Source: Escherichia phage FEC19
Length of the DNA: 64,000 bases
Sequence record: MH816966
Reading direction: 5' to 3' (one strand)
Shown piece after piece: positions 2,451 to 64,000 of this stretch. Made by a program: the position numbers and the translations under genes. The notes beneath the pieces were generated by a model that saw only the letters and a list, made by a program, of their open reading frames with translations, did not search any database and was not told where the DNA came from. The number at the start of each line of letters is the position of its first letter. Position 1 is the stretch's first letter.

Positions 2451-2720
2451 AAGGTTAGCCAGCTAACTATATCTCCTTTTTAATTTCAAGCGGCAATCCC
2501 AGAGACGGCGCAGCCTACAGGCCCACACACCACGGTACACGCCCCAAAACCTAGTGATTCCCTCTCCAATACCACAACACCACAGTACAATATTCTTCCA
2601 AATTCGCACACATATTCAAGACACAAAAATCACGTCACAATACTCACACCCCCACCATCCTCTAATAGATTTACACAAATCAATCGCTTTATCCGATAAT
2701 AAAGACTCACAAGCAACAAG

Positions 2721-2744
2721 CAAACAAAAAGGGCCAATCGGCCC
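2721..2744 (-). terminator. intrinsic terminator after gene 2763..3215
   Basis: gggccaatcggccc hairpin; minus strand reads hairpin then tttttgttt. Confidence 0.6.
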
Positions 2745-2762
2745 TCTTAACATTAATCACTA

Positions 2763-3637: not shown

Positions 3638-3854
3638 TTAACTTCTCCAAAATTTCAATAGCGATTTGCGTTTGCTTCTCAAGAGCAAGACGCAACATGT
3701 CAATTTGCAAGTCACGATGGGCCAGTTCAGCAGCGATGTCCGCCTTGCTGTAAAGTCCTTCATGCGTCATGGCAAAGATGTGGCGCGTATAATAGCCGCC
3801 CTCGTCGAGTTGCTCGATGTCACGCTGCCCGACTGCGTATTGCTTATCGGTCAT
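3621..3854 (-). CDS. hypothetical early protein
   Basis: 77-aa ORF, operon packing. Confidence 0.4.
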   Translation of the reverse strand: MTDKQYAVGQRDIEQLDEGGYYTRHIFAMTHEGLYSKADIAAELAHRDLQIDMLRLALEKQTQIAIEILEKLNDTTL

Positions 3855-29497: not shown

Positions 29498-30016
29498 ATG
29501 ATAGAAAGAATTGTACCGCTCTTGAAGATTCTGGCCCTTGTTGGCGCGTTTGCCGCTGGATCATACGTTGAAGACCTGCAGCAAACCAACGCATCACTGG
29601 CCAAGGATAATCAATATCTGACATCGCTTAATGAGCGTAAGGACAAGATAAATGCACTCGAAGAGCAAATTGCATCTTTACAGGTTGAATCGGCATCGGC
29701 ATATGAGAAAGGTCGCCAGGAAGCGCAACTGGTTGCTGATGACACTATTGCTCGTTACAAGTCTGGGAATATCAAGTTGCGCGCGCAACTCAGCTGCTCC
29801 CGTGAGTTACTCAGGAGTATGCCCGACTCTGCGACCACTGGACGCCTCTCTATCCCAGAAGGAAACTGTGGACTATCAGAAGAAGATGTCAGTTTTCTTG
29901 TTCAGTTCGCCGCAGAAACAAATCGATTAAAAGAGAAAGTTAATAGCTTGATTGATACTTATAATCAGGCTAAAATAAAAATCGATCAATTCAATGCATC
30001 AAAGGAAAATAAATGA
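29498..30016 (+). CDS. Rz-like i-spanin, putative
   Basis: N-terminal TM segment, coiled-coil periplasmic region, NIKLRAQLSC resembling the Rz RRRLHIKAVC region. Confidence 0.45.
   Translation: MIERIVPLLKILALVGAFAAGSYVEDLQQTNASLAKDNQYLTSLNERKDKINALEEQIASLQVESASAYEKGRQEAQLVADDTIARYKSGNIKLRAQLSCSRELLRSMPDSATTGRLSIPEGNCGLSEEDVSFLVQFAAETNRLKEKVNSLIDTYNQAKIKIDQFNASKENK
29739..29930 (+). CDS. Rz1-like o-spanin embedded in +1 frame of the Rz-like gene, putative
   Basis: MTLLLVTSLGISSC lipobox-like signal then short Pro-containing mature part with second Cys. Confidence 0.4.
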   Translation: MTLLLVTSLGISSCARNSAAPVSYSGVCPTLRPLDASLSQKETVDYQKKMSVFLFSSPQKQID

Positions 30017-30636
30017 AACAGATTTATGCAAACATTCGCCAGTGGGCTTCTGACCGTAACATCATCCAAGGTTGCGACCTTAAGGACCAATACCCGAAGC
30101 TTATCAGCGAGTTCGGGGAGTTAACCGACCACGTTGATCAACTCCATGACCTTGTGTTCTTCGACCCTGAAATTGGATATACAGAGCAAGCCATCTGTGA
30201 CTTGCAGGCAGCAATTAAGGACGACATCGGCGATTGCCTTGTTGTGTTGACCATCCTGGCGGCGCAAAACGGTACTGAAATCGAAAACATTAATGGCGGC
30301 GGTTGTGCTGATAAAGGCGCTCACCCTCATTCATTCATCCTTCGCCTGGCAAAGACCCTTGGACGGCTTGGTGATGCTATTGCTAAGAATCAGACCATGG
30401 ATATTGACGTCACCATCATGGCCGCAGTCGATTACCTTTCCGGCGTAGCTCATGATTATGGCCTTCGCTTATCCGACTGTGCGCAAGCGGCCTACGAAGA
30501 CATCAAGGACCGCAAAGGTGTCATGTACAACGGAACGTTCATCAAATCTACTGATCCAGCTTATGAGCACTCCTGCAAAATGGTAAAGAAGCTGGAACTT
30601 GAAGACCGTGTGATCAGAGAAGTTACAGGACAATAA
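30013..30636 (+). CDS. mazG: MazG-like nucleotide pyrophosphohydrolase
   Basis: LISEFGELTDHV and DDIGDCLVVLTILA resemble MazG EExxE / metal-binding helices. Confidence 0.55.
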   Translation: MKQIYANIRQWASDRNIIQGCDLKDQYPKLISEFGELTDHVDQLHDLVFFDPEIGYTEQAICDLQAAIKDDIGDCLVVLTILAAQNGTEIENINGGGCADKGAHPHSFILRLAKTLGRLGDAIAKNQTMDIDVTIMAAVDYLSGVAHDYGLRLSDCAQAAYEDIKDRKGVMYNGTFIKSTDPAYEHSCKMVKKLELEDRVIREVTGQ

Positions 30637-30638
30637 TT

Positions 30639-31601
30639 ATGACAGCATTAAAACCAATGAAGGGTTGCCAACGTAAGCAGATTATCGAGCGCGGCGAGGA
30701 CGTGCCGCTGCCTTGCGGACTGTCATTCAAGGTCGATGGCATACGTGCAATGGCGTATGACAACTTGCCAATGGGCACTTCCGGCATGCCGTTGCGCAAC
30801 GTTCAAATCAAAAAAGAGTTCCTCTTTTTGGGTGAACTAATTCACGGACTTGATGGAGAGCTAATCGACGGCAATCCAAATGATAAGAACGTCATGCAAC
30901 AGGCCTATACTGCATGCATGAATACTGATGCAATCACTAACTTTACATGGTGGGTGTTTGATGACTTCAGCGACCCTGATCTGCCTTTTGAAAAGCGTTA
31001 TGCAAACTATCGAGCTAGAGTTGCTGAGGTCAATCAGCATCTCATCAACCATGGTCGACGCCCATTCCTTCGCGCTCTCGAATATCGAAACATCGAAAAT
31101 ATGGAACAGTACGCGGCGATGCAAATCGAAGCAGACCAGCTTGGATATGAAGGCTTGTATGGCAAGTCTTGGACGGGCAAATACAAGCATGGCCGCGCGA
31201 CGCCGAAGTCACGTGATGTGTGGAAGGACAAGCCGTGGACGGATGAAGAAGGATTGATCATAGACTTCGTTGAGATGATGGAGAACAACAACGAAGCATT
31301 CATTGACGAATTGGGTCGCACCAAGCGTTCAAAAGAGGCTGAAGGTTTAGTTGCAAAAGGATACCTTGGCTCATTCGTAGTCGTCAATCCGAAATATGTG
31401 GATGAGAAAGGTGAAATGATTCCTTTCCGCGTATCCGCTGGTTCAATGCCTATGGCAGAGAGAAAAATGCTTTGGGAGAATCGCGAGAACTATCGCGATA
31501 AATATCTAACGTATAAATTCTTTAACTTCGGCATTGTTGATGTGCCGCGCTCTGCTTTGTATAAATGCTTCCGTGATATTACCGATATGGAGTATTTTTA
31601 A
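30639..31601 (+). CDS. ATP-dependent DNA ligase
   Basis: Motif I FKVDGIRA (KxDG), DGELI, EGLYGK downstream. Confidence 0.7.
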   Translation: MTALKPMKGCQRKQIIERGEDVPLPCGLSFKVDGIRAMAYDNLPMGTSGMPLRNVQIKKEFLFLGELIHGLDGELIDGNPNDKNVMQQAYTACMNTDAITNFTWWVFDDFSDPDLPFEKRYANYRARVAEVNQHLINHGRRPFLRALEYRNIENMEQYAAMQIEADQLGYEGLYGKSWTGKYKHGRATPKSRDVWKDKPWTDEEGLIIDFVEMMENNNEAFIDELGRTKRSKEAEGLVAKGYLGSFVVVNPKYVDEKGEMIPFRVSAGSMPMAERKMLWENRENYRDKYLTYKFFNFGIVDVPRSALYKCFRDITDMEYF

Positions 31602-31676
31602 GACACTAGATAAATAATTGGTGCGGATAATCTATCGCGTTGTTTTATAGAATTTAATATACAGTGTATACATAAA

Positions 31677-31701
31677 GCCGGAAATCTCCGGCTTTTCTTT
31701 T
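31677..31701 (+). terminator. intrinsic terminator after ligase
   Basis: gccgga aatc tccggc then ttttctttt. Confidence 0.65.
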
Positions 31702-31777
31702 ATTTACCTTTCGCCTTATTTACTTTCAAAACCTTCGGCCTATACTATTAATATTCGTAATCAAAAGGTGAATTATA

Positions 31778-32320
31778 ATGAAATCGAAAACTTTAAAGAT
31801 TGTTTTGATCACCATCATGGCTATGCTGACAGTCTTGTTCTTCACCAAAAGTGCAGCGGCTGAAAGTATGTTTACGCCGCCAAATAGTAATGCCAAAGTG
31901 TTAACGAGATATTTTAACAACGGCCAATCGTTCGAATTTTGCTGGAACAAATATGATGTGATAAAGGAAAGGTTTGATAAGGAAAAGATGTGCGTAATGA
32001 ATGATCGCGGTCGCCAAGTCGTTTCGTTTGTGTTCGGAATGTCAATTGCAAAAGTTGATGCCGCTGAAATCGTTGTCAGGTATAATACATTGGACAGCGG
32101 CCTTGTCGACAAGACATACCCTGTTGCAGTAGACAGCAGGACAGGCGGCGCACTCATACTCACTCCAGAAGATAAATCAGATGTCGTTAACATGCTCATC
32201 AACAGCAAAGACGTAATCGTGTTTTATCATGTTGAAGGCGTATCAGACTACCAAATGGCCTACTATCCACTGCCCTTAAGAGATGCTTCAGGTAATGTTA
32301 AGACACAGGATGTGCGTTGA
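31778..32320 (+). CDS. secreted/periplasmic hypothetical protein (signal peptide)
   Basis: MKSKTLKIVLITIMAMLTVLFFTKSAAAE. Confidence 0.5.
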   Translation: MKSKTLKIVLITIMAMLTVLFFTKSAAAESMFTPPNSNAKVLTRYFNNGQSFEFCWNKYDVIKERFDKEKMCVMNDRGRQVVSFVFGMSIAKVDAAEIVVRYNTLDSGLVDKTYPVAVDSRTGGALILTPEDKSDVVNMLINSKDVIVFYHVEGVSDYQMAYYPLPLRDASGNVKTQDVR

Positions 32321-32547
32321 CATGGGTGGTAGTTATGCAGAAAGATTTGGAAGAAAACAAAAGGCTGAAAAAGGCTTTGACGTCTCAAATCTTGTCCCTG
32401 TTGGTAAAGCTTATTGGGGAGTCAATTAGCAACAAGGTGGCACGGGCCGCGATTGTTGGCGTGATTGGCATGGCGGGGTATTACTTCGACTTGCCAGACA
32501 TTGATACAAGTTCCGCGCCGCCAGTCCAGGTTGAAGCCGTGAAATAA
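32317..32547 (+). CDS. small membrane protein (one TM), possible holin or lysis/exclusion factor
   Basis: AAIVGVIGMAGYYF hydrophobic segment; adjacent to endolysin. Confidence 0.35.
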   Translation: MTWVVVMQKDLEENKRLKKALTSQILSLLVKLIGESISNKVARAAIVGVIGMAGYYFDLPDIDTSSAPPVQVEAVK

Positions 32548-32551
32548 ACAA

Positions 32552-32571
32552 AGGCCCATATGGGCCTTTTT
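32552..32571. terminator. bidirectional intrinsic terminator between converging blocks
   Basis: aggccca ta tgggcct flanked by A-run and T-run. Confidence 0.65.
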
Positions 32572-32572
32572 C

Positions 32573-33217
32573 TTACATAACTGCTAGTGCATCCTTGTAA
32601 CGCTTCCGTCGCAAATCCCCATGGTTAGCCGTATTCGGCGCGGCCCCGTTAATCCGCTTCACGGTCGAATCAAATGCACCCGCATCGGCAAGTGGAATGC
32701 AACCGCTGTTCTTGAAGAACCACGCTGCGCTGTCAGCGATGTATTTCGGCTCAGTCAAAATGTCAGGGTTATTCAAGGCGTCATACCCTGATTGCTTTGA
32801 ATACTCTGCATAGTTATCCTTTCCAGTCAGCTGAATGGCACCACGGCCACGGTACTTCCAACCGTCGCCAGATGCTACCGAACCATTTCCCATTCGGTTT
32901 GCATATGTATTATTGGCGATTTCCATTGGTTTACGGGCAATCGACAACGCCAAGGAGTTTGGTGCGCCACCGAAACGACCGCTGACGCTGTAACGGCTAG
33001 GCCACGTGTTGGCAAGACCCTGTGCAGAGTAGTTGAGATTTTCCACAAATGTTCTCAAGCTGCCTGTCTCTACTCCTACGTTTGCAAGGAATGCCGCGAT
33101 GGCATTCTTGCTTTTGATTCCGTAGTGCTCACAAGCCTGCTTGAAAGGGTCCACCCATTTCTCTGCGACATCCATGCTGCATCCGGTCCCTTTAGATATT
33201 ACGTTTGCATTAATCAT
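32573..33217 (-). CDS. endolysin, glycoside hydrolase family 19-like
   Basis: AIAAFLANVGVETGSL and GRGAIQLTG motifs typical of GH19 lysins. Confidence 0.75.
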   Translation of the reverse strand: MINANVISKGTGCSMDVAEKWVDPFKQACEHYGIKSKNAIAAFLANVGVETGSLRTFVENLNYSAQGLANTWPSRYSVSGRFGGAPNSLALSIARKPMEIANNTYANRMGNGSVASGDGWKYRGRGAIQLTGKDNYAEYSKQSGYDALNNPDILTEPKYIADSAAWFFKNSGCIPLADAGAFDSTVKRINGAAPNTANHGDLRRKRYKDALAVM

Positions 33218-33225
33218 AAATCACC

Positions 33226-35013
33226 TTATGCGCTTCTGTACCAGCCGTTCAAGACGACATATCGCGGCAGAGTTGAAACAGCCGTTGGGACGGACTGCCC
33301 TGCATCGCCAGTGTTACCGACCACATCGTGAGTGTGAGCGGGGAGGGTATATCCATGGCTGTGATTGCCAGCGTAATTTATATTCAACCCATGAGTGTGT
33401 GACCCAGAAGATTGAATATTGTGAACGTGGTTGCCGTTAGTTGAGGTGTTGTATTTATAGTTGTCCCAGTCGCCGCCCTTTCGACTTCCGAAGTTGTTGT
33501 GCGTCCCATCATACACGCCATACCGCGCATCATTCGTATTTGCTTCACCCCAGCTACTGTCATGGTGGTGGTTGCCTGCTGAATCCATTCCGTGCACGTG
33601 AGCACCGTTTTGACTGGTATCGCCTGTGTGGTTATGGTTGCCTGCGTCTCCAGTGGTATTGGACCATGGACCACTCTGTCGCGTAGTTATGTTCACGCTG
33701 TGATTGTGCAGAGGAAGCATGGCGGCGGTAAGAGTAACAGAGTCTGCACCTCCAGTGTCAAGACCGTTTCTTGCCGTGCCAGACGTCCTGATGACCATGT
33801 TATCAGGCAACCTGGTCCATACCTGACCGTAAGCGCCCAGTTTAGTATTTGGGTTAGTGCCATTAGTCAAGAATCGAGTCTCACCGACTTCGAATACATC
33901 ACCCATAGTTATCAACTTCGCGGCCAAAGCATCGAGTTGGCGCTTTGTGACAAACTGTTGCGGCTCACTAGCATCGACACCGATTTGCGCCGCGCCGAAT
34001 GCTTGAAGAAGACGCCAAACGGTGCCGTCATAAATAATAGTAAAAGGAAGAAGACCGACGATGGACCCTGCTGGCAGCTCGCCGCCGTCGAATCCAAGGA
34101 CTGCAACTTTGTTTGCACCAATGGTCACGGTAACAGGTCCGGTGGTCGTTACATCATTGACAATTGTCAGGCGACTACCTGCTGACGGAGGCCATGAATA
34201 ACCTGCTGGAACGGTAAGGATTATATCTTGTGCGCCTTTACCTGATGCAAGATTCGGCGTTCCAATTTGCACGTCTTGAACAGTTGCATTTTGAATCCAA
34301 GCACTCCAAGCGCCAGACGTATAAGAGCGGGTGAAAACATATCCGTTCATTGACGTGTATTGTTGCAGGGCGAAAGTCTGCGCATTAACCTGCCAAGCGC
34401 AAACCTGGAGACGACCTGCAACCTTCGTCGCACCAACCGCGTTCGGGATGTTAGAGCAGAGAGCGGCGACTGCGTCAGATTGAATAACAATAGTTGTGGA
34501 AGTCGTGATATTATCAAAGTCCACAAAGTTTGAAATCAGTCCGCGAACAAAATACGGGTTTTGCGCATCGCCGCCAGCAGGCATAGGAATATATTTTCGC
34601 GCTTCGCTAGGCAGCGTCAATTCCTGCCAAGATTCCGTTTCGCCGTTAGCTGGGACTGCGCTGGTGTTGCCGTCAACCACGCTCTGGAAAATGCGCCATT
34701 CAGGCGCTGAAGGGGTGCCAGAGTTGCTTACAACGATGGCATTTTTCGGGTATCCATCTGGCTTCAAGTCAGACGAGAAATACTGTTGAGCGCCGTGGTC
34801 CTGGATGAACATAAGGTTGTCGGTGATCAGATTCAGCAACCAGTTCATCGACTCACGTTCAACTGCTTTCGCGGCGACGTTTCCGGCTTCCAGCGCAAGT
34901 GCATAGTCAGGGGTGTAGCCGCGCTGGAAGTTCACATAACCGCTTGGACTTGCATCCGGCACCACGGATACATCACCGCTTTGCGCGAAAGGTCTGTTAA
35001 TAAGTGTTGGCAT
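33226..35013 (-). CDS. tail fiber protein with C-terminal His-rich HxH repeats
   Basis: N-terminal fiber-like region; C-terminus with many HxH/HNH triplets; GAGGA RBS before trimmed start. Confidence 0.7.
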   Translation of the reverse strand: MPTLINRPFAQSGDVSVVPDASPSGYVNFQRGYTPDYALALEAGNVAAKAVERESMNWLLNLITDNLMFIQDHGAQQYFSSDLKPDGYPKNAIVVSNSGTPSAPEWRIFQSVVDGNTSAVPANGETESWQELTLPSEARKYIPMPAGGDAQNPYFVRGLISNFVDFDNITTSTTIVIQSDAVAALCSNIPNAVGATKVAGRLQVCAWQVNAQTFALQQYTSMNGYVFTRSYTSGAWSAWIQNATVQDVQIGTPNLASGKGAQDIILTVPAGYSWPPSAGSRLTIVNDVTTTGPVTVTIGANKVAVLGFDGGELPAGSIVGLLPFTIIYDGTVWRLLQAFGAAQIGVDASEPQQFVTKRQLDALAAKLITMGDVFEVGETRFLTNGTNPNTKLGAYGQVWTRLPDNMVIRTSGTARNGLDTGGADSVTLTAAMLPLHNHSVNITTRQSGPWSNTTGDAGNHNHTGDTSQNGAHVHGMDSAGNHHHDSSWGEANTNDARYGVYDGTHNNFGSRKGGDWDNYKYNTSTNGNHVHNIQSSGSHTHGLNINYAGNHSHGYTLPAHTHDVVGNTGDAGQSVPTAVSTLPRYVVLNGWYRSA

Positions 35014-35023
35014 TGCCGTTCCT

Positions 35024-37762
35024 CTACACGATGTATTTAATTTTTGATAAAAGGGTTGATGCCCAATCACCAGTTAAGTCAGTTATGTTCATGCTTGAAA
35101 CATAACCACCAGCAGCACTTCTCGGAAAGTTTACTGTTGCTACAACATCACCATTAGAAGCAATCAATTGAATTCCAGTGGCAAGTGATCCTGGGTTTTT
35201 GATGTATATAGAAGTCGCAGTTTTCTTTGCGAAATCTTCGCTTGTTGAAATTGCAAGCGCATTCATCGTACTACCAGACACAAGCATCAAGCTTAAAATA
35301 TCAAGTTCAAGAGTCGTACCAACTTCGGTCGGCAAGTCTTTCCCTGATATCAAACCGATGCTGATGCCGCCTGTCGATCCATCCCAGGTAGAGCCTTCAA
35401 CAATCTCAGCGGCAAGGTCAATTTCGATACGTTGCAAATCACCTGCGCCTATGTTGTAGAATTTAGGGATATAGCCACCCATCCCATCCGGTACAGTTAC
35501 AAAAAGTTTTTGACCGTTAACCGTGTTGTTTTTGACTATTGCGATAAACGACAAAGGGCCAGTCAGGGTGCCAGTGTATTTAGTAGCAAGTACAGCGCGT
35601 GCATAACCGGACGCTGGCACAGTCCCTATTGTAGCGGAAAGCTTGAATGATGGGAACTGGTTGGGCACACCGCTGATTGGCGTCGCTGTGACAGTGTTTA
35701 CGCCATCCTCAATGATATTGCCAAAAGATGTACCGTCGTTTGGCTGTGTGTAGCGCCAATAGTTAGTGATTGCCGTGCGTGGTATTTCACGACCAAAGTC
35801 ATCTCTTGATGCTTTTGAGATTGAATAGTCGTTGACAAGCGCGCCGTCGACGACCTGGTTCACACCTTTCAAAGATTCAAGCTGGCGTATCACACCGTTG
35901 AAGTTGTTCAGCGGCCACTCGTTAATGCCGCCAACTCTGATGATACCGTCAGTGTTAATCCACGCAACACCTTCCGTTTCAAATCCTACGCGCGTGTCTG
36001 TTATGTCGCTGACAGTCAAATCGATATCAGATAAGTCTGCGACTTCTTGGTAAAGCTGCCATCGTATTCCGGCATTTGCTGGCAAGAATCCTTCATTCCT
36101 GTCGCCAACTAGCGTCTTAAAGTTGTCAGACAGGTTGTTGGCGAAATAAGGTCCGATGACGTATTCCATGTAATAGTCGGCGGTCGGAGGCGGCGGTACT
36201 CCATCCAGCCTGCTAACGTTCCATGAGCGTCTGATTCCATCAGTCTCTGCAATCAGCGTGGCGTTCCCTGGGTACGGGTAGCCGCCGATTGAGCCAGAGT
36301 ATGCAAGTGATGAGCCAGGTTGCATGAATGACTCGCCAACTACACCGTTTCTTGTCGTCAGCGGTCCGTTTGCACAGGAGATGTTATTGAGCGTTCCCGC
36401 CGTTACAGACAGGATTGCTGTTCCGTCAGAAGGAGGGTTTTGCGTTCCATAAAAATAAGGCTCAGGCCCATTTGGATTCTGAACAGGGTCGCAGACGCAA
36501 ATCGAGTATCCAAACAAAAGGGCATCAGACCCTTCAGGCAATTCACGAGTTTGAGTTGATCCAGCGGCAGTCGCCTTCAACTCTATTGAAAAGCTGGTAC
36601 TTACTCCAGAAGCAGCGGTTGCCGTCTGCTCTACAATCCAGATTCGATACCAATCGCCGCCAATTGCTTTTATGCCACCACGGTTTGATTCCCTTCTTAC
36701 TCCATCGAATTTGCCTTTGATGAAATAGCTCAATGACGGGTCCAAGTTGAACTGGCCAGTGACGGGGTCAAACAGCTTTCCATTACTCGATGCATCACTA
36801 TTCTCTGTAACAGAAACAGAAGCGACGTTTTCAGAAAGCACCTTTATGTAGAAGCTATAGCAAACGTTGACGCCAGCCTGCGAAGGAAGCGAAATTGATT
36901 TGGCACTTGGATTATTGGCCAAAGAATACACAGGCTCACCGCTTGAAGCCGTCTTGATGACCCTTACTGCGTTGGCAAAATTCTCTATGGCCTCGCCTGG
37001 GTAATCGCCACACAACTGCCCATAGTAATCAGGCCCACCATACTGTCTGGTATCGCCGCCGACAAGCCCTGCGCCGGAACCATTTCCCCATGAGTACCAA
37101 TCTGGGTGCGCCATCCGTGACACGGTGCCTGACACTCCGCTGATGGTCAGCCCGGCGTTGTTGCCATGGCTTAAAAGTATCTGCTTATAATCATGCTGAA
37201 TCTCAGTTGACCCCTGCCAGTCGTACAGAAGGAATGAGCCATTGGTTGATTCAGACGAAGACACCGCGCCTTGAGTATTGTCGGTCACATATGCGTAGCG
37301 TGATGAAGAGTAATCCCAAGACTCTCCACGGTTGAAAATCCACTTAAGCATGCGGTTGATACTTTCGATGCGGCCATCACTTGTAAGCGTCAGATAACGA
37401 AGCTTAAGAAGTATGCGCGCTTCTTCGATATTCTTTACAACCTTCCCGCCAGCACCAAAGAAGTTGCCGCCGATGTTGTCCGCACCTTCAAAGTTGTCGC
37501 GCGTCGGTCCAAACGCCCAGTTGTGCTCATAATTGCTTAAGTCCACAAAGTCTCTTGGTATGCAAAGAATGTCGCACCAAATATAAATTCCCATTGCATC
37601 ACAAGTGTCAATGTTAAAAATGTTATTGTACCAGTCAGTCCAAAACTGATCTTGGTATCTTTCATACCAGTCACTTTTCTTTTGCACCAAAGATGTAATG
37701 TTTGGTGCATTGTTCTGCATCCACTTAAGGTTTTGCAACAGGTTTGTGTCAAACTTTTGCAT
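35024..37762 (-). CDS. large tail/baseplate-associated structural protein
   Basis: 912-aa ORF within tail module. Confidence 0.5.
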   Translation of the reverse strand: MQKFDTNLLQNLKWMQNNAPNITSLVQKKSDWYERYQDQFWTDWYNNIFNIDTCDAMGIYIWCDILCIPRDFVDLSNYEHNWAFGPTRDNFEGADNIGGNFFGAGGKVVKNIEEARILLKLRYLTLTSDGRIESINRMLKWIFNRGESWDYSSSRYAYVTDNTQGAVSSSESTNGSFLLYDWQGSTEIQHDYKQILLSHGNNAGLTISGVSGTVSRMAHPDWYSWGNGSGAGLVGGDTRQYGGPDYYGQLCGDYPGEAIENFANAVRVIKTASSGEPVYSLANNPSAKSISLPSQAGVNVCYSFYIKVLSENVASVSVTENSDASSNGKLFDPVTGQFNLDPSLSYFIKGKFDGVRRESNRGGIKAIGGDWYRIWIVEQTATAASGVSTSFSIELKATAAGSTQTRELPEGSDALLFGYSICVCDPVQNPNGPEPYFYGTQNPPSDGTAILSVTAGTLNNISCANGPLTTRNGVVGESFMQPGSSLAYSGSIGGYPYPGNATLIAETDGIRRSWNVSRLDGVPPPPTADYYMEYVIGPYFANNLSDNFKTLVGDRNEGFLPANAGIRWQLYQEVADLSDIDLTVSDITDTRVGFETEGVAWINTDGIIRVGGINEWPLNNFNGVIRQLESLKGVNQVVDGALVNDYSISKASRDDFGREIPRTAITNYWRYTQPNDGTSFGNIIEDGVNTVTATPISGVPNQFPSFKLSATIGTVPASGYARAVLATKYTGTLTGPLSFIAIVKNNTVNGQKLFVTVPDGMGGYIPKFYNIGAGDLQRIEIDLAAEIVEGSTWDGSTGGISIGLISGKDLPTEVGTTLELDILSLMLVSGSTMNALAISTSEDFAKKTATSIYIKNPGSLATGIQLIASNGDVVATVNFPRSAAGGYVSSMNITDLTGDWASTLLSKIKYIV

Positions 37763-54180: not shown

Positions 54181-54224
54181 ACAATAATTATGGTTTGAAT
54201 ATGTATAACAACCGATATAGCCGC

Positions 54225-54530
54225 GCCTTAATTAGTGTGATACGGATGATACGGATAAAATGAGGCGTATTTTTATCCGTATCGGTGTATAAGCCGCGCT
54301 ATCACTGGTGTGCTACGGATGATACGGATGATACGGATACTTTTCATATATAAGAGTTTATAAAAAAAATAAAATTAAATTAGATATATAATTTTAAATT
54401 AATTTATTTGAATTCCTATAAAGTATCGCGGCAACGCGTATCATCCGTATCATCCGTAAGATTCTTTTGAAAACAACTACTTACTTGATACGGATGATAC
54501 GTCATTATACGCGTAAAATCCTGCGGCAAT
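54225..54530. repeat. composite intergenic element copy 2 (TACGGATGA 9-mers, 13-bp perfect inverted repeat, AT-rich core, GCGTATAATGACGTA box)
   Basis: Homologous to 2140-2450; triple tandem tacggatga at ~54282-54308. Confidence 0.8.
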
Positions 54531-54545: not shown

Positions 54546-54683
54546 TCAGTGAATATTAAAAAGCACTCCAGCAACTAAAACGCCAATCAGCATCGAGTCG
54601 TAAACAGCCCATTTCCAAGAAAGCAAAGAGTTGCAATTAATATTTCGCACTTTAACGTAACGTGACTGAATAATCTTTTGCAT
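54546..54683 (-). CDS. small membrane protein (45 aa, C-terminal TM), not in ORF track
   Basis: AAGAGGA RBS; MQKIIQSRYVKV...MLIGVLVAGVLFNIH. Confidence 0.35.
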   Translation of the reverse strand: MQKIIQSRYVKVRNINCNSLLSWKWAVYDSMLIGVLVAGVLFNIH

Positions 54684-59012: not shown

Positions 59013-59429
59013 ATGAGCACAACAATTGTATTTGTCGTCCTACACAACGGCGAAGTCGTTAACGTATGCGAATATGAAGAACTGGCAAAGGCCACTGCTG
59101 CGCGATACGAAGGTGCTACTATTGACCCGTGGATTTTAGATGCGCGCAACGTCTTGCAGGCGACTTTGGATGAGTGGCTGTTGGGTCGCAAAGTCTATCC
59201 AGTAGACGACATCGACTCAATTCAAGGTGAAACAGTATATTTTGAAGATGAATGCGTTCGCGGCATCGGCAAATTTATGGGATTGTGCCCATCTTCATCC
59301 AAAAATAAATTTTATCGTATTCAAGTTGAAGAAAACGATATGTTTGACAAAGTTACGCGCTCGATTGTTCCTGACGGCGGCACTCCAATCTTTATGGCAG
59401 AATCAGACATCAAGGGGATCATCAAATGA
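59013..59429 (+). CDS. hypothetical protein in opposite-strand cassette
   Basis: 138-aa ORF with strong RBS. Confidence 0.5.
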   Translation: MSTTIVFVVLHNGEVVNVCEYEELAKATAARYEGATIDPWILDARNVLQATLDEWLLGRKVYPVDDIDSIQGETVYFEDECVRGIGKFMGLCPSSSKNKFYRIQVEENDMFDKVTRSIVPDGGTPIFMAESDIKGIIK

Positions 59430-59665
59430 GAACGTTAACCGAACTCGATGTTTTGAAAGACGTTGCAGCCGCGCTGGGCGTAGAATTATCCGAAAAGGCG
59501 ACACTAGGTGCTTTGCGTCGGGATTTACTCGAAGCTGTTGACCGCAACGATTTTGACCGTAAGTGTATGCAAAAGAAGATTCGGCAGGCGGTGAGAGCGG
59601 GTAAGCGATTCCGTGCCAGGTCGTTTGCCGCAAGAAAGCTTGACCTTCAGCACGGAATGCTTTGA
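59426..59665 (+). CDS. hypothetical basic protein in opposite-strand cassette
   Basis: 79-aa ORF; start overlaps upstream stop. Confidence 0.45.
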   Translation: MRTLTELDVLKDVAAALGVELSEKATLGALRRDLLEAVDRNDFDRKCMQKKIRQAVRAGKRFRARSFAARKLDLQHGML

Positions 59666-59668: not shown

Positions 59669-61129
59669 TTAAAGGTTAGAGAAGAAGCCGGATGCTGCAA
59701 CGATTGGTTTCATCAATGCCATGATTGCTGCGTCCGCTTTGTTAGGTGATTTGACTCCACGCTTTGCCATATCCTTTTTGGATTCAACTTTGAACTTGCC
59801 AAGAACAGACGTATCTTTGCGCGGCGCTGACATCTCAAAAAGAAACGTCTCAATCTCTTCAGTAGTCCAAGCTGGAATCCCAAGTTCCGGTATACCATCG
59901 GTGTCGATTGAAATCAATTCATCAGTCGGATATACGGCTTGCCCAGTTGCATATTCGTATGTCTTTCTGAATCTCTCTGCAATTTCAGTCCACTTTTGCG
60001 CTTTTATGTTTGCGAAATGGTCTTTATTGAGTATTTCAACGTGTGGTAGCTCAAGAAAAACGTCATCAGGATCATCAACAGACCCTTGCGCGTTGAACGC
60101 ATTAAATTCGATTCTTGGAAATGATGGATTTTCATGTATTGCATACTCGTTTAGTTCATCAAACTTTGAACCAGCAAAAGCGCCGACACCGATGGCGTCA
60201 TAAGTTATGGAAGCGCCGAATGTAAGCGCATCTTTCCAAACTCCGCTTGCCGATTTCAACAATTCATCTTCCAGGCCTTCCCACGTCTTGATGCCGCGCA
60301 ATACGTTTCCTGTGACGAATGCAGTGGCGTTAAGGTCGTCGCCATCGTCCGCTACGTCAAAGCCTATACGGTTAGACCCTGACAAACTCCAGCCCAGCGT
60401 TGGGTGCTTGTGGAGATTAAGCGCGGCCTTAACGAATGCGCGGTTGATTACAGATTTGTCGCCGCCAGTCTTCGGCACGCCGCCATAAACGTGCTCTGCC
60501 TTTTTCGGGTCACGCTCGTACATGCCTGCAATAACGTCCAACATTGTTTGCGACAAGAATGGATTATCTTGCCAGTTTATCTTTTTAACAATTGCATTCT
60601 TCGGCGGTCGCATAACAAAGTTTTGATATACGAAATCGGCCTCTTCATCAGGGTTAAAGATGATCCATATTTCGGACCCTTCTTTACGTATTGTCGGCTC
60701 AATAATGTCCCACTGTTCTTCAGTAAGCGCGTGCGCTTCTTCCAGCCAAAGAACATCAACGCCTTCTGTTGATTTGATTTCATCAACGTTACGTGCGATA
60801 CCATAAAATAGAAATTCAGATTTAGTTCTTTTGTGTTCGATAGAGTTCTTTAATAAATTGAACTCATCTTTAAAATCAGAAATCTCTATTTTGTCTTTTA
60901 ATAGTGTATATACAGATTCAGAAATCTTGTTCTGGAATTGTCGAACGCAAAGGAATTTTAATTTGAAGTTTGCCGCCAAATAAATAGCAAAACCAGCGGC
61001 ATCGTGCGATTTGGAAGATGCACGACCGCCGTATATTACTTTGTATCGCGCTTTTGTCTTCCAGACTTCTTTTAAAGCAGGATTCAACTGGTACATGAAT
61101 TTCCAATTATGTGTTAATATTTTATTCAT
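59669..61129 (-). CDS. terL: terminase large subunit
   Basis: Walker A YKVIYGGRASSKS; acidic nuclease-like C-terminal half. Confidence 0.85.
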   Translation of the reverse strand: MNKILTHNWKFMYQLNPALKEVWKTKARYKVIYGGRASSKSHDAAGFAIYLAANFKLKFLCVRQFQNKISESVYTLLKDKIEISDFKDEFNLLKNSIEHKRTKSEFLFYGIARNVDEIKSTEGVDVLWLEEAHALTEEQWDIIEPTIRKEGSEIWIIFNPDEEADFVYQNFVMRPPKNAIVKKINWQDNPFLSQTMLDVIAGMYERDPKKAEHVYGGVPKTGGDKSVINRAFVKAALNLHKHPTLGWSLSGSNRIGFDVADDGDDLNATAFVTGNVLRGIKTWEGLEDELLKSASGVWKDALTFGASITYDAIGVGAFAGSKFDELNEYAIHENPSFPRIEFNAFNAQGSVDDPDDVFLELPHVEILNKDHFANIKAQKWTEIAERFRKTYEYATGQAVYPTDELISIDTDGIPELGIPAWTTEEIETFLFEMSAPRKDTSVLGKFKVESKKDMAKRGVKSPNKADAAIMALMKPIVAASGFFSNL

Positions 61130-61205
61130 ATTATAGTTTGCTTGTACAAGCTATATCAAGTAAAATTATGATTCCAGCTTAGTAGTGGATAAAGGGTGAT
61201 CTTTC

Positions 61206-61232
61206 GGCCAGATTTTTTCTGGCCATTTTTTT
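61206..61232 (+). terminator. stem-loop with T-run (ggccagattttttctggcc attttttt)
   Basis: Inverted repeat read directly; orientation uncertain. Confidence 0.35.
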
Positions 61233-61252
61233 GATTAAAATTCACAAAAAGT

Positions 61253-61280
61253 TTGCCTTTCTGAAACTCTGCGTTATAAT
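61253..61280 (+). promoter_or_regulatory. sigma70-like promoter (TTGCCT-16-TATAAT) for right-end plus-strand genes
   Basis: Consensus -10 and near-consensus -35. Confidence 0.55.
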
Positions 61281-61306
61281 CATATTAACTCAAAACCGGA
61301 GGTAAT

Positions 61307-61522
61307 ATGAAACTCATCGACCGTGCCATCAAAGCCATAGATAACCATTCCACAGCTATTGCATTTGTAATGGGATTCTGTTTTACTGCTGCGTTTGGCG
61401 ACGTTCACACATTCAAGTCTGTCATCTTGTGCTGGTCTATCTGGTCCCTCATTTCTCTGGTTTTGATTCTTCCGATGACGTGGCTTATCCTTACTTGTCT
61501 GGAATCTCAAGGTGAAGACTGA
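61307..61522 (+). CDS. small membrane protein (two hydrophobic segments), holin candidate
   Basis: 71 aa with two hydrophobic stretches. Confidence 0.4.
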   Translation: MKLIDRAIKAIDNHSTAIAFVMGFCFTAAFGDVHTFKSVILCWSIWSLISLVLILPMTWLILTCLESQGED

Positions 61523-61743
61523 TGAGACTATCAATCAAAGAGCGGGCAAAACGTCCCAAAAGGAGTGAGCCAAAAGCGAAATATACATGCGTAGGCGGTC
61601 CATTCGACGGTCAAGCGATGTGGCTTTCAAAATCTAATCCATCGACGGTTGAGTTTAGCCTTCATGGAATGCGCGGCAGATACCTGCTAAACAGAGAAAC
61701 AATCGGCAGCACATTTGTGGAGTGGAAAGAAAATGGCAAGTGA
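61522..61743 (+). CDS. hypothetical basic protein
   Basis: 73-aa ORF. Confidence 0.4.
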   Translation: MRLSIKERAKRPKRSEPKAKYTCVGGPFDGQAMWLSKSNPSTVEFSLHGMRGRYLLNRETIGSTFVEWKENGK

Positions 61744-61966
61744 ATTAACTTTAAAAGTACCAAAAGAAGTGCTAGATAAGGCATATGCAGATTCTGTAAA
61801 AGAATTGGCCGTGGTGCTTGGGATTGAAAATGAATTTAACGTTCAATTGCAATTCCTTAAGGACACGCTTCAAATTAAAGAGAATAGAGAGGCTGGAAGC
61901 GGTGCGCCTTTAGCTCTGGCAATCCTCTATACAGGTCTGATTTTGCAATCTGGAGACGAACTGTGA
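61733..61966 (+). CDS. hypothetical protein (start uncertain)
   Basis: ORF 61715..61966, internal ATG preferred. Confidence 0.3.
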   Translation: MASELTLKVPKEVLDKAYADSVKELAVVLGIENEFNVQLQFLKDTLQIKENREAGSGAPLALAILYTGLILQSGDEL

Positions 61967-62162
61967 ATCGTTGGTGCAGTTGGAAGTTGAAACGTCTTGC
62001 CTGGGCCAATGCCGCCAATTCTGCTGGCCCAATCACCGCTGGCGTTGGGTCGGTATGGGATGGCGAAGGCCGTTGGGACTCGCTGTGTGGTACGCGCCTA
62101 TTCTTTCGCGTAAAATAATTATCACCCTTCCCACTTCGGGAAGGGAATTTAAAGAGGTTATC

Positions 62163-62504
62163 ATGAACAACACTTTATCACAACTGCTAATCTGGACTAT
62201 CGCCGCTATCATCGGCACCGTCATTATGATGTCAAGCGCAAAGGCGCAAACTGATATTTGCGGCAGACTTATTTCTGAGAATGGCGAGATTTATTATGGC
62301 AACTCAAAAGGCGATTATATATCACCTGAAGTTTGCGCTCAGAAGAAGGCGGAAATGCAAAAGCAGTATCATGAAGATCAATCCATATCTCAGGCCGCGC
62401 TGATTGAATTAAGTATATCAGCCATCATCTTTCTGATCGTTTTTATGCTCATTATTAAACCAAATAATGACAGCAACCGTCATATTCCTCTCAAAAGAAA
62501 TTAA
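62163..62504 (+). CDS. membrane protein with N-terminal signal/TM and C-terminal TM
   Basis: AAAGAGG RBS 5 nt before ATG; hydrophobic segments at both ends. Confidence 0.4.
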   Translation: MNNTLSQLLIWTIAAIIGTVIMMSSAKAQTDICGRLISENGEIYYGNSKGDYISPEVCAQKKAEMQKQYHEDQSISQAALIELSISAIIFLIVFMLIIKPNNDSNRHIPLKRN

Positions 62505-62542
62505 GGCTATAATACGGTTGTCGACAAAACGAGGACCGTAAA

Positions 62543-64000
62543 ATGCCAAGGCTAATATTCAAAAACAACTTTGAGGTCGCGCTTGCTCAGCCAACGACGA
62601 CTTCAGACACCACAATTACAATCCGCTCAGGGTCGGGCTTTCCGACCTTGGCCGCAAACGAGCGTGTAGTGGCGACAATCGTCGACGCTGCAACAGGCCT
62701 CCAATTCGAAATCATCACAGTAACAGCCGTCGTTGGTGATGTCCTGACCGTTCAGCGTGCACAGGAAGGGACTGCAGCGCGTGCATGGGCGGCTGGCGAC
62801 ATGCTTTCCATTCGAACAACTGCTGCGACTTTGACGGGTACTGTCCGAAACTTTGGCGTAATTCCTAATGGAGTAAACCTTAACGCGCTGAACGGAAGCT
62901 GGTTCGGGCAGTATTACCAACTGGCTGATTCTGGGGCATCAATATCACTCAACTATCCTGTCGCACAAGCGGGAATACTTGAAGTTTTACAAACGGGAGT
63001 TTCAACGAACGGATGTGTTCAGCGATACACACCTTACAACACTAACACTGTATACCAGAGGCTGTATAATGCCATCACATCAACTTGGTCTGATTGGGTT
63101 CAAGTTTATAATACGCAAAGCGTTATACCAGTCGCAAATGGCGGTACAGGACAAACGACCATCCAAGGGATGAAGTCTGCTTTTGGATTCGGAACGGTCG
63201 CTGATCAAAACATTGTTCCCACTTCAATGGGCGGTACGGGATCAGCAGACAATGCGCAGGCATGGCTTAACATTCGTCCACAAGGGTCGACTCCGCTGGC
63301 TGGCGACCCTGTGAATGATTATGATGCCGCAACTAAGCGTTGGGTTGAGAACTTAGTAAATACTGGCACCGTTGGCCCAAGCATGAACGGTGTTATGAAC
63401 TATGGCGTCGGTGACTTCCACTTACGCGACAGTCGTGCTTATATTCAACCATATGAAGTCGTTGCTGATGGGCAGTTGTTAAACCGCGCTGACTGGCCTG
63501 AACTTTGGGCGTATGCGCAAATGCTTTCTCCTATTGCTGATGCCGACTGGCTTGCTGACCCAGCGAAACGCGGCAAGTATTCACTTGGTAATGGCACAAC
63601 GACATTCCGTGTACCAGACAGAAATGGTGTCCAGACCGGTTCCATACAAGCCTTATTTGGCAGGGGTGACGGCGGTAATTCATCGGCCAACGGAGTCGTT
63701 TCTGAGTCAGGTGCACCAAATATAACTTACTCCGCGCCGCACACAATGGTCACGTTGGCTTCTGCGCCAAGTCAGGTGGCGACTAATGGCGCTTTTCAGT
63801 CGATCACTTCTGGGGACTCTCCAGCAGCAGCAGGTTCTGGTTCAAGATTCATACAAACAAACTTTGACGCTTCTCGATCAAGCCCTGTATACGGAAGATC
63901 AGCAGCGGAAATCGTTCCGCGTAACTTTGTTGGCGTTTGGGTGATTCGTGCATCGGGTGGCTTTGTTGCCGCGAATACGACTTGGAGCGTTATTAATGGT
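62543..64000 (+). CDS. tail fiber protein with tail-collar-like domain, 3'-truncated at window edge
   Basis: Own translation: VANGGTGQTT, PTSMGGTGSADNAQAWLNIRP, DYDAATKRWVEN, LLNRADWPELWAYA...GNGTTFRVPDRNG. Confidence 0.65.
   Translation, partial: MPRLIFKNNFEVALAQPTTTSDTTITIRSGSGFPTLAANERVVATIVDAATGLQFEIITVTAVVGDVLTVQRAQEGTAARAWAAGDMLSIRTTAATLTGTVRNFGVIPNGVNLNALNGSWFGQYYQLADSGASISLNYPVAQAGILEVLQTGVSTNGCVQRYTPYNTNTVYQRLYNAITSTWSDWVQVYNTQSVIPVANGGTGQTTIQGMKSAFGFGTVADQNIVPTSMGGTGSADNAQAWLNIRPQGSTPLAGDPVNDYDAATKRWVENLVNTGTVGPSMNGVMNYGVGDFHLRDSRAYIQPYEVVADGQLLNRADWPELWAYAQMLSPIADADWLADPAKRGKYSLGNGTTTFRVPDRNGVQTGSIQALFGRGDGGNSSANGVVSESGAPNITYSAPHTMVTLASAPSQVATNGAFQSITSGDSPAAAGSGSRFIQTNFDASRSSPVYGRSAAEIVPRNFVGVWVIRASGGFVAANTTWSVING

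What the first reader, a model, noticed from the sequence alone, without database searches (positions are those of the whole stretch)
61253..64000. Second, separately transcribed tail fiber with collar domain plus membrane-protein genes at the right end
Outside the main tail module and on the opposite strand, a promoter drives four small genes (two encoding membrane proteins) followed by a tail fiber with a tail-collar-like domain (GNGTTFRVPDRNG). A second receptor-binding protein with its own regulation suggests an accessory host-range module; the membrane proteins could be holin or exclusion factors.
Basis: partly seen in the sequence, partly recalled or inferred. Interest (0 to 1): 0.45.

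Follow-up and report, generated by a model that had tools for sequence, protein, structure and literature searches.

The report
Known second tail fibre of Wifcevirus
The right end of the window carries the first two thirds of the second, host-range-determining tail fibre gene that has already been described for this group of E. coli phages (genus Wifcevirus), preceded by five small conserved genes of unknown function, so the finding is real but essentially ordinary.

Summary
The window is a Wifcevirus-type E. coli myovirus.

The fibre is the ortholog of the published "T-shaped" Wifcevirus fibre (PMC11990801). That fibre has an N-terminal baseplate anchor, a T4 Gp12-like receptor-binding domain, and a T5-like second domain with a self-cleaving chaperone. 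Published work found the ortholog abundant in phage preparations and linked Wifcevirus infection to O157 or O16 O-antigen.

The quoted motif lies in the Gp12-like domain. It misses Pfam's Collar threshold, but homologues and a fold search support the resemblance.

The small genes are intact and under purifying selection. The two membrane proteins are restricted to this genus, hit no holin or defence family, and do not co-vary with the fibre tip.

One new lead: the 38-nt fibre leader is almost invariant. It folds so that read-through RNA hides the ribosome-binding site, and a TATAAT box could start transcripts that expose it. This is untested.

Verdict: already known, low interest.

The parts
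61206..61233 (+). G+C hairpin GGCCAGA-loop-TCTGGCC followed by T7 (terminator-like), between the terminase start and the small-gene promoter
   Evidence: Found by the scan. Conserved in all genomes aligned. In phages that carry an optional 231-nt gene it lies upstream of that gene. Annotated as 'terminator' in the WFH record.
61253..61280 (+). Sigma-70-like promoter TTGCCT-16-TATAAT, 26 nt upstream of the first small gene
   Evidence: Hexamers 0/12 variable against 17/61 variable neighbouring positions in 15 genomes. Also identical in the divergent metagenomic lineage L017-L020. Not tested experimentally.
61307..61522 (+). g71: 71-aa hydrophobic membrane protein, restricted to this genus
   Evidence: Hydrophobic segments. 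Only 2 clusters found in 5.8 billion proteins. 94-99% identical in 12 relatives. 25 synonymous against 7 non-synonymous codon variants. No family hit.
61522..61743 (+). g73: 73-aa basic soluble protein, PHROG 12090 (function unknown)
   Evidence: E = 1.4e-27. Intact in all 13 genomes, 25 synonymous / 13 non-synonymous variants.
61733..61966 (+). g77: 77-aa protein, the least constrained of the five
   Evidence: 72-100% identity in relatives. 50 synonymous / 43 non-synonymous variants. No family hit.
   Evidence: GTG start and 51 codons conserved in 13/13 genomes, 22 synonymous / 7 non-synonymous variants. Annotated in the Bas98-101, ECML-117 and Mansfield records.
62125..62145 (+). Conserved stem-loop CCCUUCCC-5 nt-GGGAAGGG between g51 and g113, with no U-run after it
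   Evidence: dG -15.5 kcal/mol, z = -2.4. In 15 genomes the stem is 0/16 variable while the loop is 5/5 variable. Function unknown.
62163..62504 (+). g113: 113-aa protein with a signal-like N-terminal hydrophobic segment, a ~55-aa two-Cys middle part, a C-terminal transmembrane segment and a basic tail; restricted to this genus
   Evidence: 27 phage records, all Wifcevirus-like, at 95-99% identity. A full HMMER scan of 1.84 billion representatives found only its own cluster plus a spurious ankyrin-repeat hit. 42 synonymous / 10 non-synonymous variants.
62505..62542 (+). Near-invariant fibre leader: TATAAT(A) at 62508-62514, hairpin 62513-62540 that pairs the Shine-Dalgarno GAGGA (62531-62535)
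   Evidence: 2/38 variable sites in 15 genomes (P = 6e-4 against other intergenic DNA, 3e-8 against third codon positions). dG -14.2 kcal/mol, z = -4.1, 0/200 shuffles fold as well. SD unpaired probability about 0 in read-through RNA, 0.4-0.6 in RNA starting at 62519-62521.
62543..64000 (+). 5' two thirds (486 codons) of the T-shaped lateral tail fibre. Anchor aa 1-100 (62543-62842); knob aa 101-195 (62843-63127); Gp12-like RBD1 from about aa 227 (63221-64000), including the collar-like motif at 63587-63628
59669..61129 (-). Large terminase gene (context), divergent from the fibre unit; the true start is probably 61096
   Evidence: Bas100 annotates 1428 nt. A TTGATA-18-TATAAT promoter-like site at 61159..61130 abuts the upstream ATG.
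33226..35070 (-). The other, conserved tail fibre in the main tail module (context)
   Evidence: PHROG 5717 / 4277 tail proteins. Corresponds by position to the Bas100 'tail protein' next to the endolysin. Described as the conserved Gp37-like fibre in PMC11990801.

Best explanation
The region is the start of the accessory receptor-binding unit of a Wifcevirus-type E. coli myovirus. It diverges from the large terminase gene. A conserved sigma-70-like promoter is followed by five small conserved genes of unknown function, and then by the gene for the genus's second, 'T-shaped' lateral tail fibre.

Shown here or in published work:
- The fibre protein has an almost invariant N-terminal domain, a knob domain that is exchanged between phages, and a Gp12/collar-like receptor-binding domain with a hypervariable tip.
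- In full-length orthologs this is followed by a second, highly variable T5-like receptor-binding domain and a C-terminal intramolecular chaperone.
- The ortholog is made in large amounts.
- Wifcevirus infection depends on O-antigen.

Inferred:
- Trimers dock on the baseplate through the N-terminal domain and bind O-antigen through one or both receptor-binding domains. They thereby set host range, while the conserved fibre of the tail module plays a more mechanical role.
- The tip of this window's RBD1 is of the type found in Bas98-101, the phages that depend on O16 O-antigen.
- The five small proteins are most likely non-structural accessory proteins. They are not needed to fold the fibre, which carries its own chaperone.
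For: Identity of the phage and locus:
- 86-93% nucleotide identity and full synteny with Bas98-101, vB_Eco4M-7, ECML-117 and WFH/WFC.

Fibre:
- PHROG 6921, E = 1.8e-157.
- Full-length orthologs are 763-785 aa; a C-terminal Peptidase_S74 domain was shown for vB_Eco4M-7 and is on record for metagenomic orthologs.
- Domain-wise identity to relatives: anchor 91-98%, knob 46-83%, core 90-99%, RBD1 tip 96-97% to Bas98-101 but 35-44% to all others.
- Residues 227-486 match DT57C LtfA (E = 2.5e-115), residues 4-106 match the N-terminus of the 8jov fibre, and residues 102-190 match the R2 pyocin knob.

Published evidence:
- Two fibres in Wifcevirus, a T-shaped dual-RBD architecture, and O16 dependence of Bas98-101 (PMC11990801).
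- vB_Eco4M-7 gp27 had the top mass-spectrometry score, with 34 peptides and 80% coverage (PMC7048862).
- O157-antigen dependence of vB_Eco4M-7, and a viable C-terminally tagged gp27 (PMC11074155).

Unit boundaries:
- Conserved promoter.
- Terminator-like hairpin directly after the fibre stop in Bas100.

Acquired module:
- Pbunavirus Pa204 has only small genes, and no fibre gene, in the cluster divergent from terL.
Against: - The last ~290 codons (RBD2 and the chaperone domain) are outside the window, and no exact source genome was recovered. Completeness here is inferred from orthologs.
- Pfam Collar is below its threshold.
- No experiment assigns O-antigen binding to this fibre rather than the other one, or to RBD1 rather than RBD2. 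The BASEL authors say so themselves.
- Promoter, terminator and operon structure are sequence predictions only.
Confidence: 0.88

Rival explanations
1. The small membrane proteins (g71, g113) are the phage's missing holin/antiholin, so the unit would be a lysis-plus-fibre cassette.
For: No holin is annotated in the Bas100 genome, although an endolysin and spanins are. g71 and g113 are among the few credible small membrane proteins in the window. g113 has a basic C-terminal tail.
Against: - No Pfam, NCBIfam or PHROG holin family is matched.
- The endolysin (32573-33217) and the spanin (29498-30016) are 28-32 kb away.
- g71 ends in an acidic tail, not a basic one.
- The ~55-aa middle part of g113 is atypical for two-TMD holins.
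- Other candidates exist: a 45-aa TM protein at 54546-54683 and a 180-aa protein at 31778-32320 next to the endolysin.
Confidence: 0.1
2. The five small genes are early accessory genes for host takeover, superinfection exclusion or anti-defence, expressed from the host-type promoter. They are functionally unrelated to the fibre that follows them.
For: - Sigma-70-like promoter.
- In Pbunavirus the equivalent position holds a cluster of small genes without a fibre.
- The proteins are tiny, mostly genus-restricted and under purifying selection.
- The orthologs of four of them (gp28-31; the g51 ortholog is not annotated in that record) were not listed in mass spectrometry of the phage preparation.
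- Their size and membrane topology recall T4 Imm and Sp (my own knowledge, not tested).
Against: - No homology to any known exclusion, takeover or defence-related family.
- g113 has no lipobox, so it is not of the T5 Llp or Cor type.
- g113 does not co-vary with the receptor-binding tip, which argues against a receptor-specific exclusion factor.
- The timing of expression is unknown.
Confidence: 0.3
3. The small proteins are assembly chaperones or minor virion components of the second fibre.
For: They lie immediately upstream in the same orientation, and the arrangement is strictly conserved in 17 genomes.
Against: - The fibre carries its own intramolecular chaperone domain in the orthologs tested.
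- gp28-31 were not detected by mass spectrometry, whereas the fibre, the downstream gp26 and the optional gp32 were.
- Two of the five are integral membrane proteins.
- They stay the same while the receptor-binding domains are exchanged.
Confidence: 0.07
4. The fibre ORF is a truncated or decaying pseudogene.
For: Only that the ORF has no stop codon inside the window.
Against: - 486 codons are open up to the window edge.
- Every ortholog examined is a complete ORF of 763-791 aa.
- From aa 186 to 486 it is 99% identical to the 777-aa L027 fibre.
- The ortholog is abundantly expressed.
Confidence: 0.02

Closest known systems
T-shaped dual-RBD tail fibre of Wifcevirus (ManiWeber/Bas99 'Gp114'; Bas98-101; vB_Eco4M-7 gp27), PMC11990801
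   Same: - Same locus, divergent from terL and behind the same five small genes.
- Same length class.
- 88-90% amino-acid identity over the 486 residues seen.
- Same conserved N-terminal anchor and the same Gp12-like RBD1; the tip is 96-97% identical to Bas98-101.
   Different: - The knob domain (aa 101-195) is a different allele: 83% identical to vB_Eco4M-7 but only 52-59% to Bas98-101. This fibre is therefore a new mosaic.
- RBD2 and the chaperone domain cannot be seen in the window.
- The paper's gene number (Gp114) does not match the GenBank locus tag of the 777-aa fibre (Bas99_0109).
LtfA lateral tail fibre of T5-like phage DT57C (PDB 8hqz chain d; PMC10713586) and the IrisVonRoten (Bas32) fibre
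   Same: Residues 227-486 align with LtfA residues 533-801 at E = 2.5e-115. There is also about 72% nucleotide identity to the IrisVonRoten fibre. This is the same exchangeable receptor-binding module, used by siphoviruses whose lateral fibres are essential for growth on O-antigen-producing strains.
   Different: - The attachment differs. LtfA inserts into an LtfC collar ring on a non-contractile tail. Here the N-terminal domain resembles the N-terminus of the 8jov fibre, and the BASEL authors propose direct attachment to the baseplate.
- The matching part of LtfA is not resolved in the solved structure.
T4 Gp12 short tail fibre receptor-binding/collar domain (Pfam PF07484; PDB 5lye, 1ocy)
   Same: - The FRVPD-type motif aligns with the end of the Collar profile.
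- Homologues of the region carry PF07484.
   Different: - Sequence identity is only 12-13%.
- The Pfam score is below the gathering threshold.
- Here the domain lies in the middle of the fibre and is followed by a second RBD, instead of forming the distal tip.
Translational control of T4 gene e (lysozyme) by alternative 5' ends (McPheeters et al. 1986; cited from my own knowledge, not read here)
   Same: - A hairpin pairs the Shine-Dalgarno sequence in RNA that reads through from upstream.
- A -10-like box is placed so that transcripts starting 7 nt downstream lack the 5' arm of the hairpin.
   Different: - Nothing here is demonstrated.
- There is no recognisable -35 element.
- The phage's late-promoter type is unknown.
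- The gene concerned encodes a fibre, not a lysis enzyme.

Membership tests
Wifcevirus T-shaped dual-RBD tail fibre (PMC11990801) | [quoted passage not shown] | tested here: met
   Residues 1-100 are 91-98% identical in 12 orthologs. They match the N-terminus of the PDB 8jov fibre, E = 2.4e-7.
Wifcevirus T-shaped dual-RBD tail fibre (PMC11990801) | Gp12-like RBD1 with a variable tip | tested here: met
   [not shown]
Wifcevirus T-shaped dual-RBD tail fibre (PMC11990801) | T5-like RBD2 followed by a C-terminal intramolecular chaperone (Peptidase_S74) | not testable with these tools
   These parts lie beyond the window end. Peptidase_S74 was shown for the vB_Eco4M-7 ortholog and is on record for metagenomic orthologs; the full-length orthologs align through this region. 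The exact source genome was not recovered.
Wifcevirus T-shaped dual-RBD tail fibre (PMC11990801) | Encoded outside the tail module, divergent from terL, downstream of the conserved small genes | tested here: met
   Synteny with 12 GenBank phages and with metagenomic contigs.
Pfam Collar (PF07484, phage tail collar domain) | Score at or above the gathering threshold (24 bits) | tested here: not met
   13.3 bits, E = 0.081, covering only profile positions 38-54 of 57. Six more distant homologues of the region do carry PF07484, so the relationship is likely but the formal criterion fails.
Holins | Match to a known holin family model | tested here: not met
   No holin family found for g71 or g113 in Pfam, PHROGs or NCBIfam.
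Holins | Small protein with at least one transmembrane segment and a charged C-terminal tail | tested here: inconclusive
   Both have hydrophobic segments. g113 has a basic tail; g71 has an acidic one. These features are not specific to holins.
Holins | Genetic linkage to the endolysin or spanin genes | tested here: not met
   Endolysin at 32573-33217 and spanin at 29498-30016, 28-32 kb away.
Receptor-linked superinfection exclusion proteins (T5 Llp / Cor type) | Lipoprotein signal with a lipobox cysteine, encoded next to the receptor-binding protein and matched to its receptor | tested here: not met
   g113 lies next to the fibre gene, but its signal-like segment has no cysteine (translation). 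It also stays 96-99% identical while the fibre tip changes.
T4 gene e-type control by alternative transcript 5' ends | Stable hairpin that occludes the ribosome-binding site in read-through RNA | tested here: met
   dG -14.2 kcal/mol, z = -4.1. SD unpaired probability is about 0 in 91-161-nt contexts. This is a computed fold only.
T4 gene e-type control by alternative transcript 5' ends | Active promoter that starts transcripts inside the hairpin | not testable with these tools
   TATAAT at 62508-62513 is invariant and TATAATA is enriched fourfold in the window. There is no -35 element and there are no transcript data.

The most novel reading that the evidence does not exclude
The fibre gene may be under two-layer control like T4 gene e.

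- RNA that reads through from the upstream sigma-70-type promoter, across the five small genes, would carry a hairpin (62513-62540) that hides the fibre's ribosome-binding site.
- A promoter consisting of a -10 box only (TATAAT(A), 62508-62514) would start transcripts at about 62520, inside the hairpin. These would expose the site, so the fibre would be made only when that promoter fires.

This would explain three things: how a structural gene can sit in an early-type gene cluster; why the 38-nt leader is nearly invariant (2 variable sites in 15 genomes); and why TATAATA is fourfold enriched and lies just upstream of the portal, terminase, protease and fibre genes.
Probability: 0.2. Interest if true: 0.45.

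Novelty: already known. Interest (0 to 1): 0.2.

Why it matters
The fibre probably decides which E. coli O-serotypes this phage can infect. Wifcevirus phages are used for O157 detection and biocontrol, so knowing which modules are exchangeable (knob, RBD1 tip, RBD2) is practically useful. All of this is already in the literature for the genus.

This window adds three things:
- another mosaic allele of the fibre;
- evidence that the five small upstream genes are real and constrained, and that the two tested (g71, g113) are restricted to this genus;
- a testable idea for how fibre synthesis could be timed.

None of these changes current understanding.

Tried and rejected
- Holin or defence identity of the small proteins. 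Pfam, PHROGs, NCBIfam and PADLOC gave nothing above noise.
- Remote homologues of g113. A full HMMER scan of 1.84 billion representatives found only its own cluster. The one extra hit is a eukaryote-like ankyrin-repeat protein matched six times, which I judged spurious.
- Remote homologues of g71. Two clusters only, both from Wifcevirus-like contigs.
- Co-variation of g113 with the receptor-binding tip, as a test of receptor-linked exclusion. None was found.
- Formal Pfam Collar membership. Below threshold.
- Similarity of the N-terminal anchor to the other fibre (614 aa) or to the 912-aa tail protein. None, so the two fibres do not share an attachment domain.
- Recovering the source genome to complete the fibre, using an exact-protein look-up with g77. 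Eight contigs were read and none is identical. The best matches are L022 (98.6% over the first 3.9 kb) and L027 (94.6% over all 5 kb).
- Identifying the phage behind PDB 8jov in the paper library. No relevant paper was found.
- A paper that mentions phage Mansfield together with holins turned out to be about a Pantoea phage and was irrelevant.
- Covariation support for the two hairpins. This is not possible because the stems never vary.
- In one search the codon phases for g77 and g51 were set wrongly. Those two rows should be ignored; the conclusion rests on g71, g73, g113 and the fibre.
Full report
WHAT IS THERE

The window is a circularly permuted piece of a genome of about 68 kb belonging to a Wifcevirus-type E. 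coli myovirus.
- The finding region has 86-93% nucleotide identity to Bas98-101, vB_Eco4M-7, ECML-117, WFH and WFC.
- The replication region is up to 96% identical to WFH and Ro157lw.
- No record or contig examined is identical to the window.

The large terminase gene lies on the - strand at 59669-61129. Its real start is probably 61096, as annotated in Bas100.

Diverging from it on the + strand are, in order:
- a G+C hairpin with a T7 run (61206-61233);
- a promoter-like site TTGCCT-16-TATAAT (61253-61280);
- five small ORFs: g71 (61307-61522), g73 (61522-61743), g77 (61733-61966), g51 (61963-62118, GTG start) and g113 (62163-62504);
- a fibre ORF that starts at ATG 62543 and is still open at the window end after 486 codons.

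The main tail module is on the opposite strand. It includes the other fibre (33226-35070) and a GH19 endolysin (32573-33217).

IS IT MORE THAN CHANCE?

The promoter match alone is not: the scan found 12 sites against 9.1 expected. But in 15 aligned genomes both hexamers are invariant, while 17 of the 61 surrounding positions vary; by my calculation (44/61)^12, P is about 0.02. The site is also unchanged in a more divergent metagenomic lineage whose g71 is only 76% identical.

All five small ORFs are intact in 13 of 13 genomes, and their variation is concentrated at third codon positions. Synonymous against non-synonymous codon variants are 25/7, 25/13, 50/43, 22/7 and 42/10, in gene order; the ratios are far worse in the other two frames. 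So there are five real genes, not four.

Two of them encode membrane proteins.
- g71 has hydrophobic stretches consistent with 2-3 transmembrane segments by eye; the scan itself scored one segment.
- g113 has a signal-like N-terminal hydrophobic segment, a middle part of about 55 aa with two cysteines, a C-terminal transmembrane segment and a basic tail.

THE FIBRE

It matches PHROG 6921 'tail fiber protein' with E = 1.8e-157. Full-length orthologs at the same locus are 763-785 aa. A C-terminal Peptidase_S74 intramolecular chaperone was shown for vB_Eco4M-7 and is on record for metagenomic orthologs.

Alignment of 12 orthologs shows a clear modular pattern:
- Residues 1-100 are almost invariant (91-98% identical to the window).
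- Residues 101-195 are variable (46-83%).
- Residues 196-370 are conserved (90-99%).
- Residues 371-460 are hypervariable: 96-97% identical to Bas98-101 but only 35-44% to all others.
- The part beyond the window is the most variable of all.

Sequence matches to solved structures name the modules:
- Residues 4-106 match the N-terminus of a 439-aa fibre present in 18 chains in PDB 8jov.
- Residues 102-190 match the R2 pyocin fibre knob (6ct8).
- Residues 227-486 match residues 533-801 of LtfA of the T5-like phage DT57C (E = 2.5e-115). That part of LtfA is not resolved in the deposited structure.

It lies in this domain and aligns with the end of the Pfam Collar profile, but at 13.3 bits against a cutoff of 24. 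More distant homologues of the region do carry PF07484. 'Collar-like' is therefore fair as a resemblance, but it is not a formal Pfam membership.

WHAT IS ALREADY KNOWN

The BASEL completion paper (PMC11990801) describes exactly this situation. Wifcevirus phages have two fibres.
- One is a conserved Gp37-like fibre in the tail locus, proposed to have a mechanical role.
- The other is a second, 'T-shaped' fibre. It has an N-terminal anchor for direct baseplate attachment, a Gp12-like RBD1, a T5-like RBD2 and an intramolecular chaperone. Both RBDs are variable and horizontally exchanged with Tequintavirus and Gordonclarkvirinae fibres.

Further points from that paper:
- Bas98-101 depend completely on O16-type O-antigen.
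- They are blocked by GtrABS glucosylation of that antigen.
- The authors state that they cannot say which RBD is responsible.

For vB_Eco4M-7, the ortholog gp27 was the highest-scoring protein in mass spectrometry of the phage preparation, with 34 peptides and 80% coverage (PMC7048862). That phage needs the O157 antigen, and it tolerates a C-terminal tag on gp27 (PMC11074155).

WHAT THE COMPARISON ADDS

(i) The fibre here is a new mosaic.
- Its knob is closest to vB_Eco4M-7 (83%).
- Its RBD1 tip is of the Bas98-101 type.
- A metagenomic contig (L027) has the same sequence from residue 186 onwards (99%) but a different knob, so the knob is an independent exchange unit.

(ii) By synteny, the fibre looks like an acquired gene. 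In Pbunavirus Pa204, whose terL is 64% identical, the cluster divergent from terL contains only small genes.

(iii) In Bas100 a terminator-like hairpin follows the fibre stop codon directly. This fits a unit of promoter, five small genes, fibre and terminator.

THE SMALL PROTEINS

- g71 and g113 are restricted to this genus. g71 has two clusters among 5.8 billion proteins. g113 is found in 27 phage records, all Wifcevirus-like, and in one cluster of 1.84 billion representatives.
- g73 belongs to PHROG 12090, of unknown function.
- None of the five matches a holin, exclusion or defence family.
- g113 remains 96-99% identical while the fibre tip is replaced. This argues against a factor matched to a particular receptor.
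- The orthologs gp28-31 of vB_Eco4M-7 were not among the proteins detected by mass spectrometry, whereas the fibre, the downstream gp26 and the optional gp32 were. The g51 ortholog is not annotated in that record, so nothing can be said about it from that dataset.
- No holin is annotated in Bas100, so a lysis role cannot be excluded. But the lysis genes are 28-32 kb away, and other membrane-protein candidates exist.

My ranking of the possibilities is: non-structural accessory (early-type) proteins first, holin second, assembly factors last.

A LEAD NOT IN THE LITERATURE I READ

The 38-nt leader between g113 and the fibre (62505-62542) has only 2 variable sites in 15 genomes. This compares with 27% variable sites in the other two intergenic stretches (P = 6e-4) and about 46% at third codon positions (P = 3e-8).

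The leader contains TATAAT(A) at 62508-62514. It folds into a hairpin at 62513-62540 (dG -14.2 kcal/mol, z = -4.1, 0 of 200 shuffles fold as well) that pairs the Shine-Dalgarno GAGGA.
- In read-through RNA the SD bases are paired with probability about 1.
- In RNA starting at 62519-62521, seven nucleotides after the -10 box, the mean unpaired probability rises to 0.4-0.6.

TATAATA occurs 17 times in the window against 4.4 +/- 2.2 expected. Copies lie just upstream of the portal, terminase, head-protease and fibre genes.

This resembles the arrangement known for T4 gene e (my own knowledge). It would let a structural gene sit inside an early-type cluster. It is a model only: the stems never vary, so covariation cannot be tested, there is no -35 element, and there are no transcript data.

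A second stem-loop (62125-62145) between g51 and g113 has invariant stems (0 of 16 positions variable) and a fully variable loop (5 of 5), with no U-run after it. Its role is unknown.

VERDICT

The speculation about the membrane proteins is unsupported. Novelty: already known (a new mosaic allele of a known fibre). Interest is low.

Noticed in passing
window 54219-54501: A ~420-bp non-coding gap in the head module, between a 45-aa TM ORF and the head protease gene. It holds at least ten copies of the 9-mer GATACGGAT in both orientations, including 22-nt perfect inverted arms, around a very A+T-rich core. The arrangement is iteron-like and might be a replication origin or a packaging site.
   Followed up: partly
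window 59013-59665: Two + strand genes (138 and 79 aa) form an island inside the - strand packaging/head operon, between the portal and terminase genes. Only 3 nt separate the second gene's stop from the terminase stop, so transcripts of either strand must run antisense into the other. The island is conserved in all relatives.
   Followed up: no
window 61130-61233: A terminator-like hairpin with T7 on the + strand lies only ~75 nt from the terminase start, with no + strand gene before it. In phages that carry the optional 231-nt gene the hairpin lies upstream of that gene, not after it. It may end antisense read-through across terL, or belong to a ~50-nt RNA started at the weak TGTACA-18-TATGAT site (61143-61172).
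   Followed up: partly
window 61233-61240 (indel site): A clean ~260-bp indel. vB_Eco4M-7, Bas100, Bas101, ECML-117, Mansfield and TH32 carry an extra 76-aa gene (gp32 in vB_Eco4M-7, detected by mass spectrometry) between the T-run and the promoter. This window, Bas98, Bas99, SP13, WFH, Ro157lw and EC150 lack it.
   Followed up: partly
window 61096-61159: The best sigma-70-like site in the region (TTGATA-18-TATAAT, 11/12, - strand, 61159..61130) abuts the ATG at 61129. The terminase gene therefore more likely starts at ATG 61096, as annotated in Bas100.
   Followed up: partly
whole window: The heptamer TATAATA occurs 17 times against 4.4 +/- 2.2 expected from first-order Markov simulations. 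Copies lie just upstream of the portal (58894), terminase (61135), head protease (54157), the 43824 gene (43858) and the fibre (62508). It may be a -10-type element of a phage promoter class.
   Followed up: partly
window 29498-33217 and 54546-54683: No holin is annotated in the closest curated genome. The spanin genes lie among replication genes, about 2.5 kb from the endolysin. Other small membrane-protein candidates are a 180-aa protein with an N-terminal hydrophobic segment (31778-32320), convergent with the endolysin, and a 45-aa TM protein in the head module.
   Followed up: partly
L005 (PQ850618.1, Bas99) 1448-3781: The BASEL paper calls the T-shaped fibre of ManiWeber 'Gp114' and the conserved fibre 'Gp32'. 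In the GenBank record the 777-aa fibre is Bas99_0109, and Bas99_0114 is the 71-aa membrane protein. The numbering of the paper and the record differ.
   Followed up: no
L001 11123-11410 (vB_Eco4M-7 gp26; beyond the window end): The 95-aa protein encoded directly downstream of the fibre was detected by mass spectrometry with 62% coverage. It could be a fibre-associated or virion protein. Its gene lies in the ~4 kb missing from this window.
   Followed up: no
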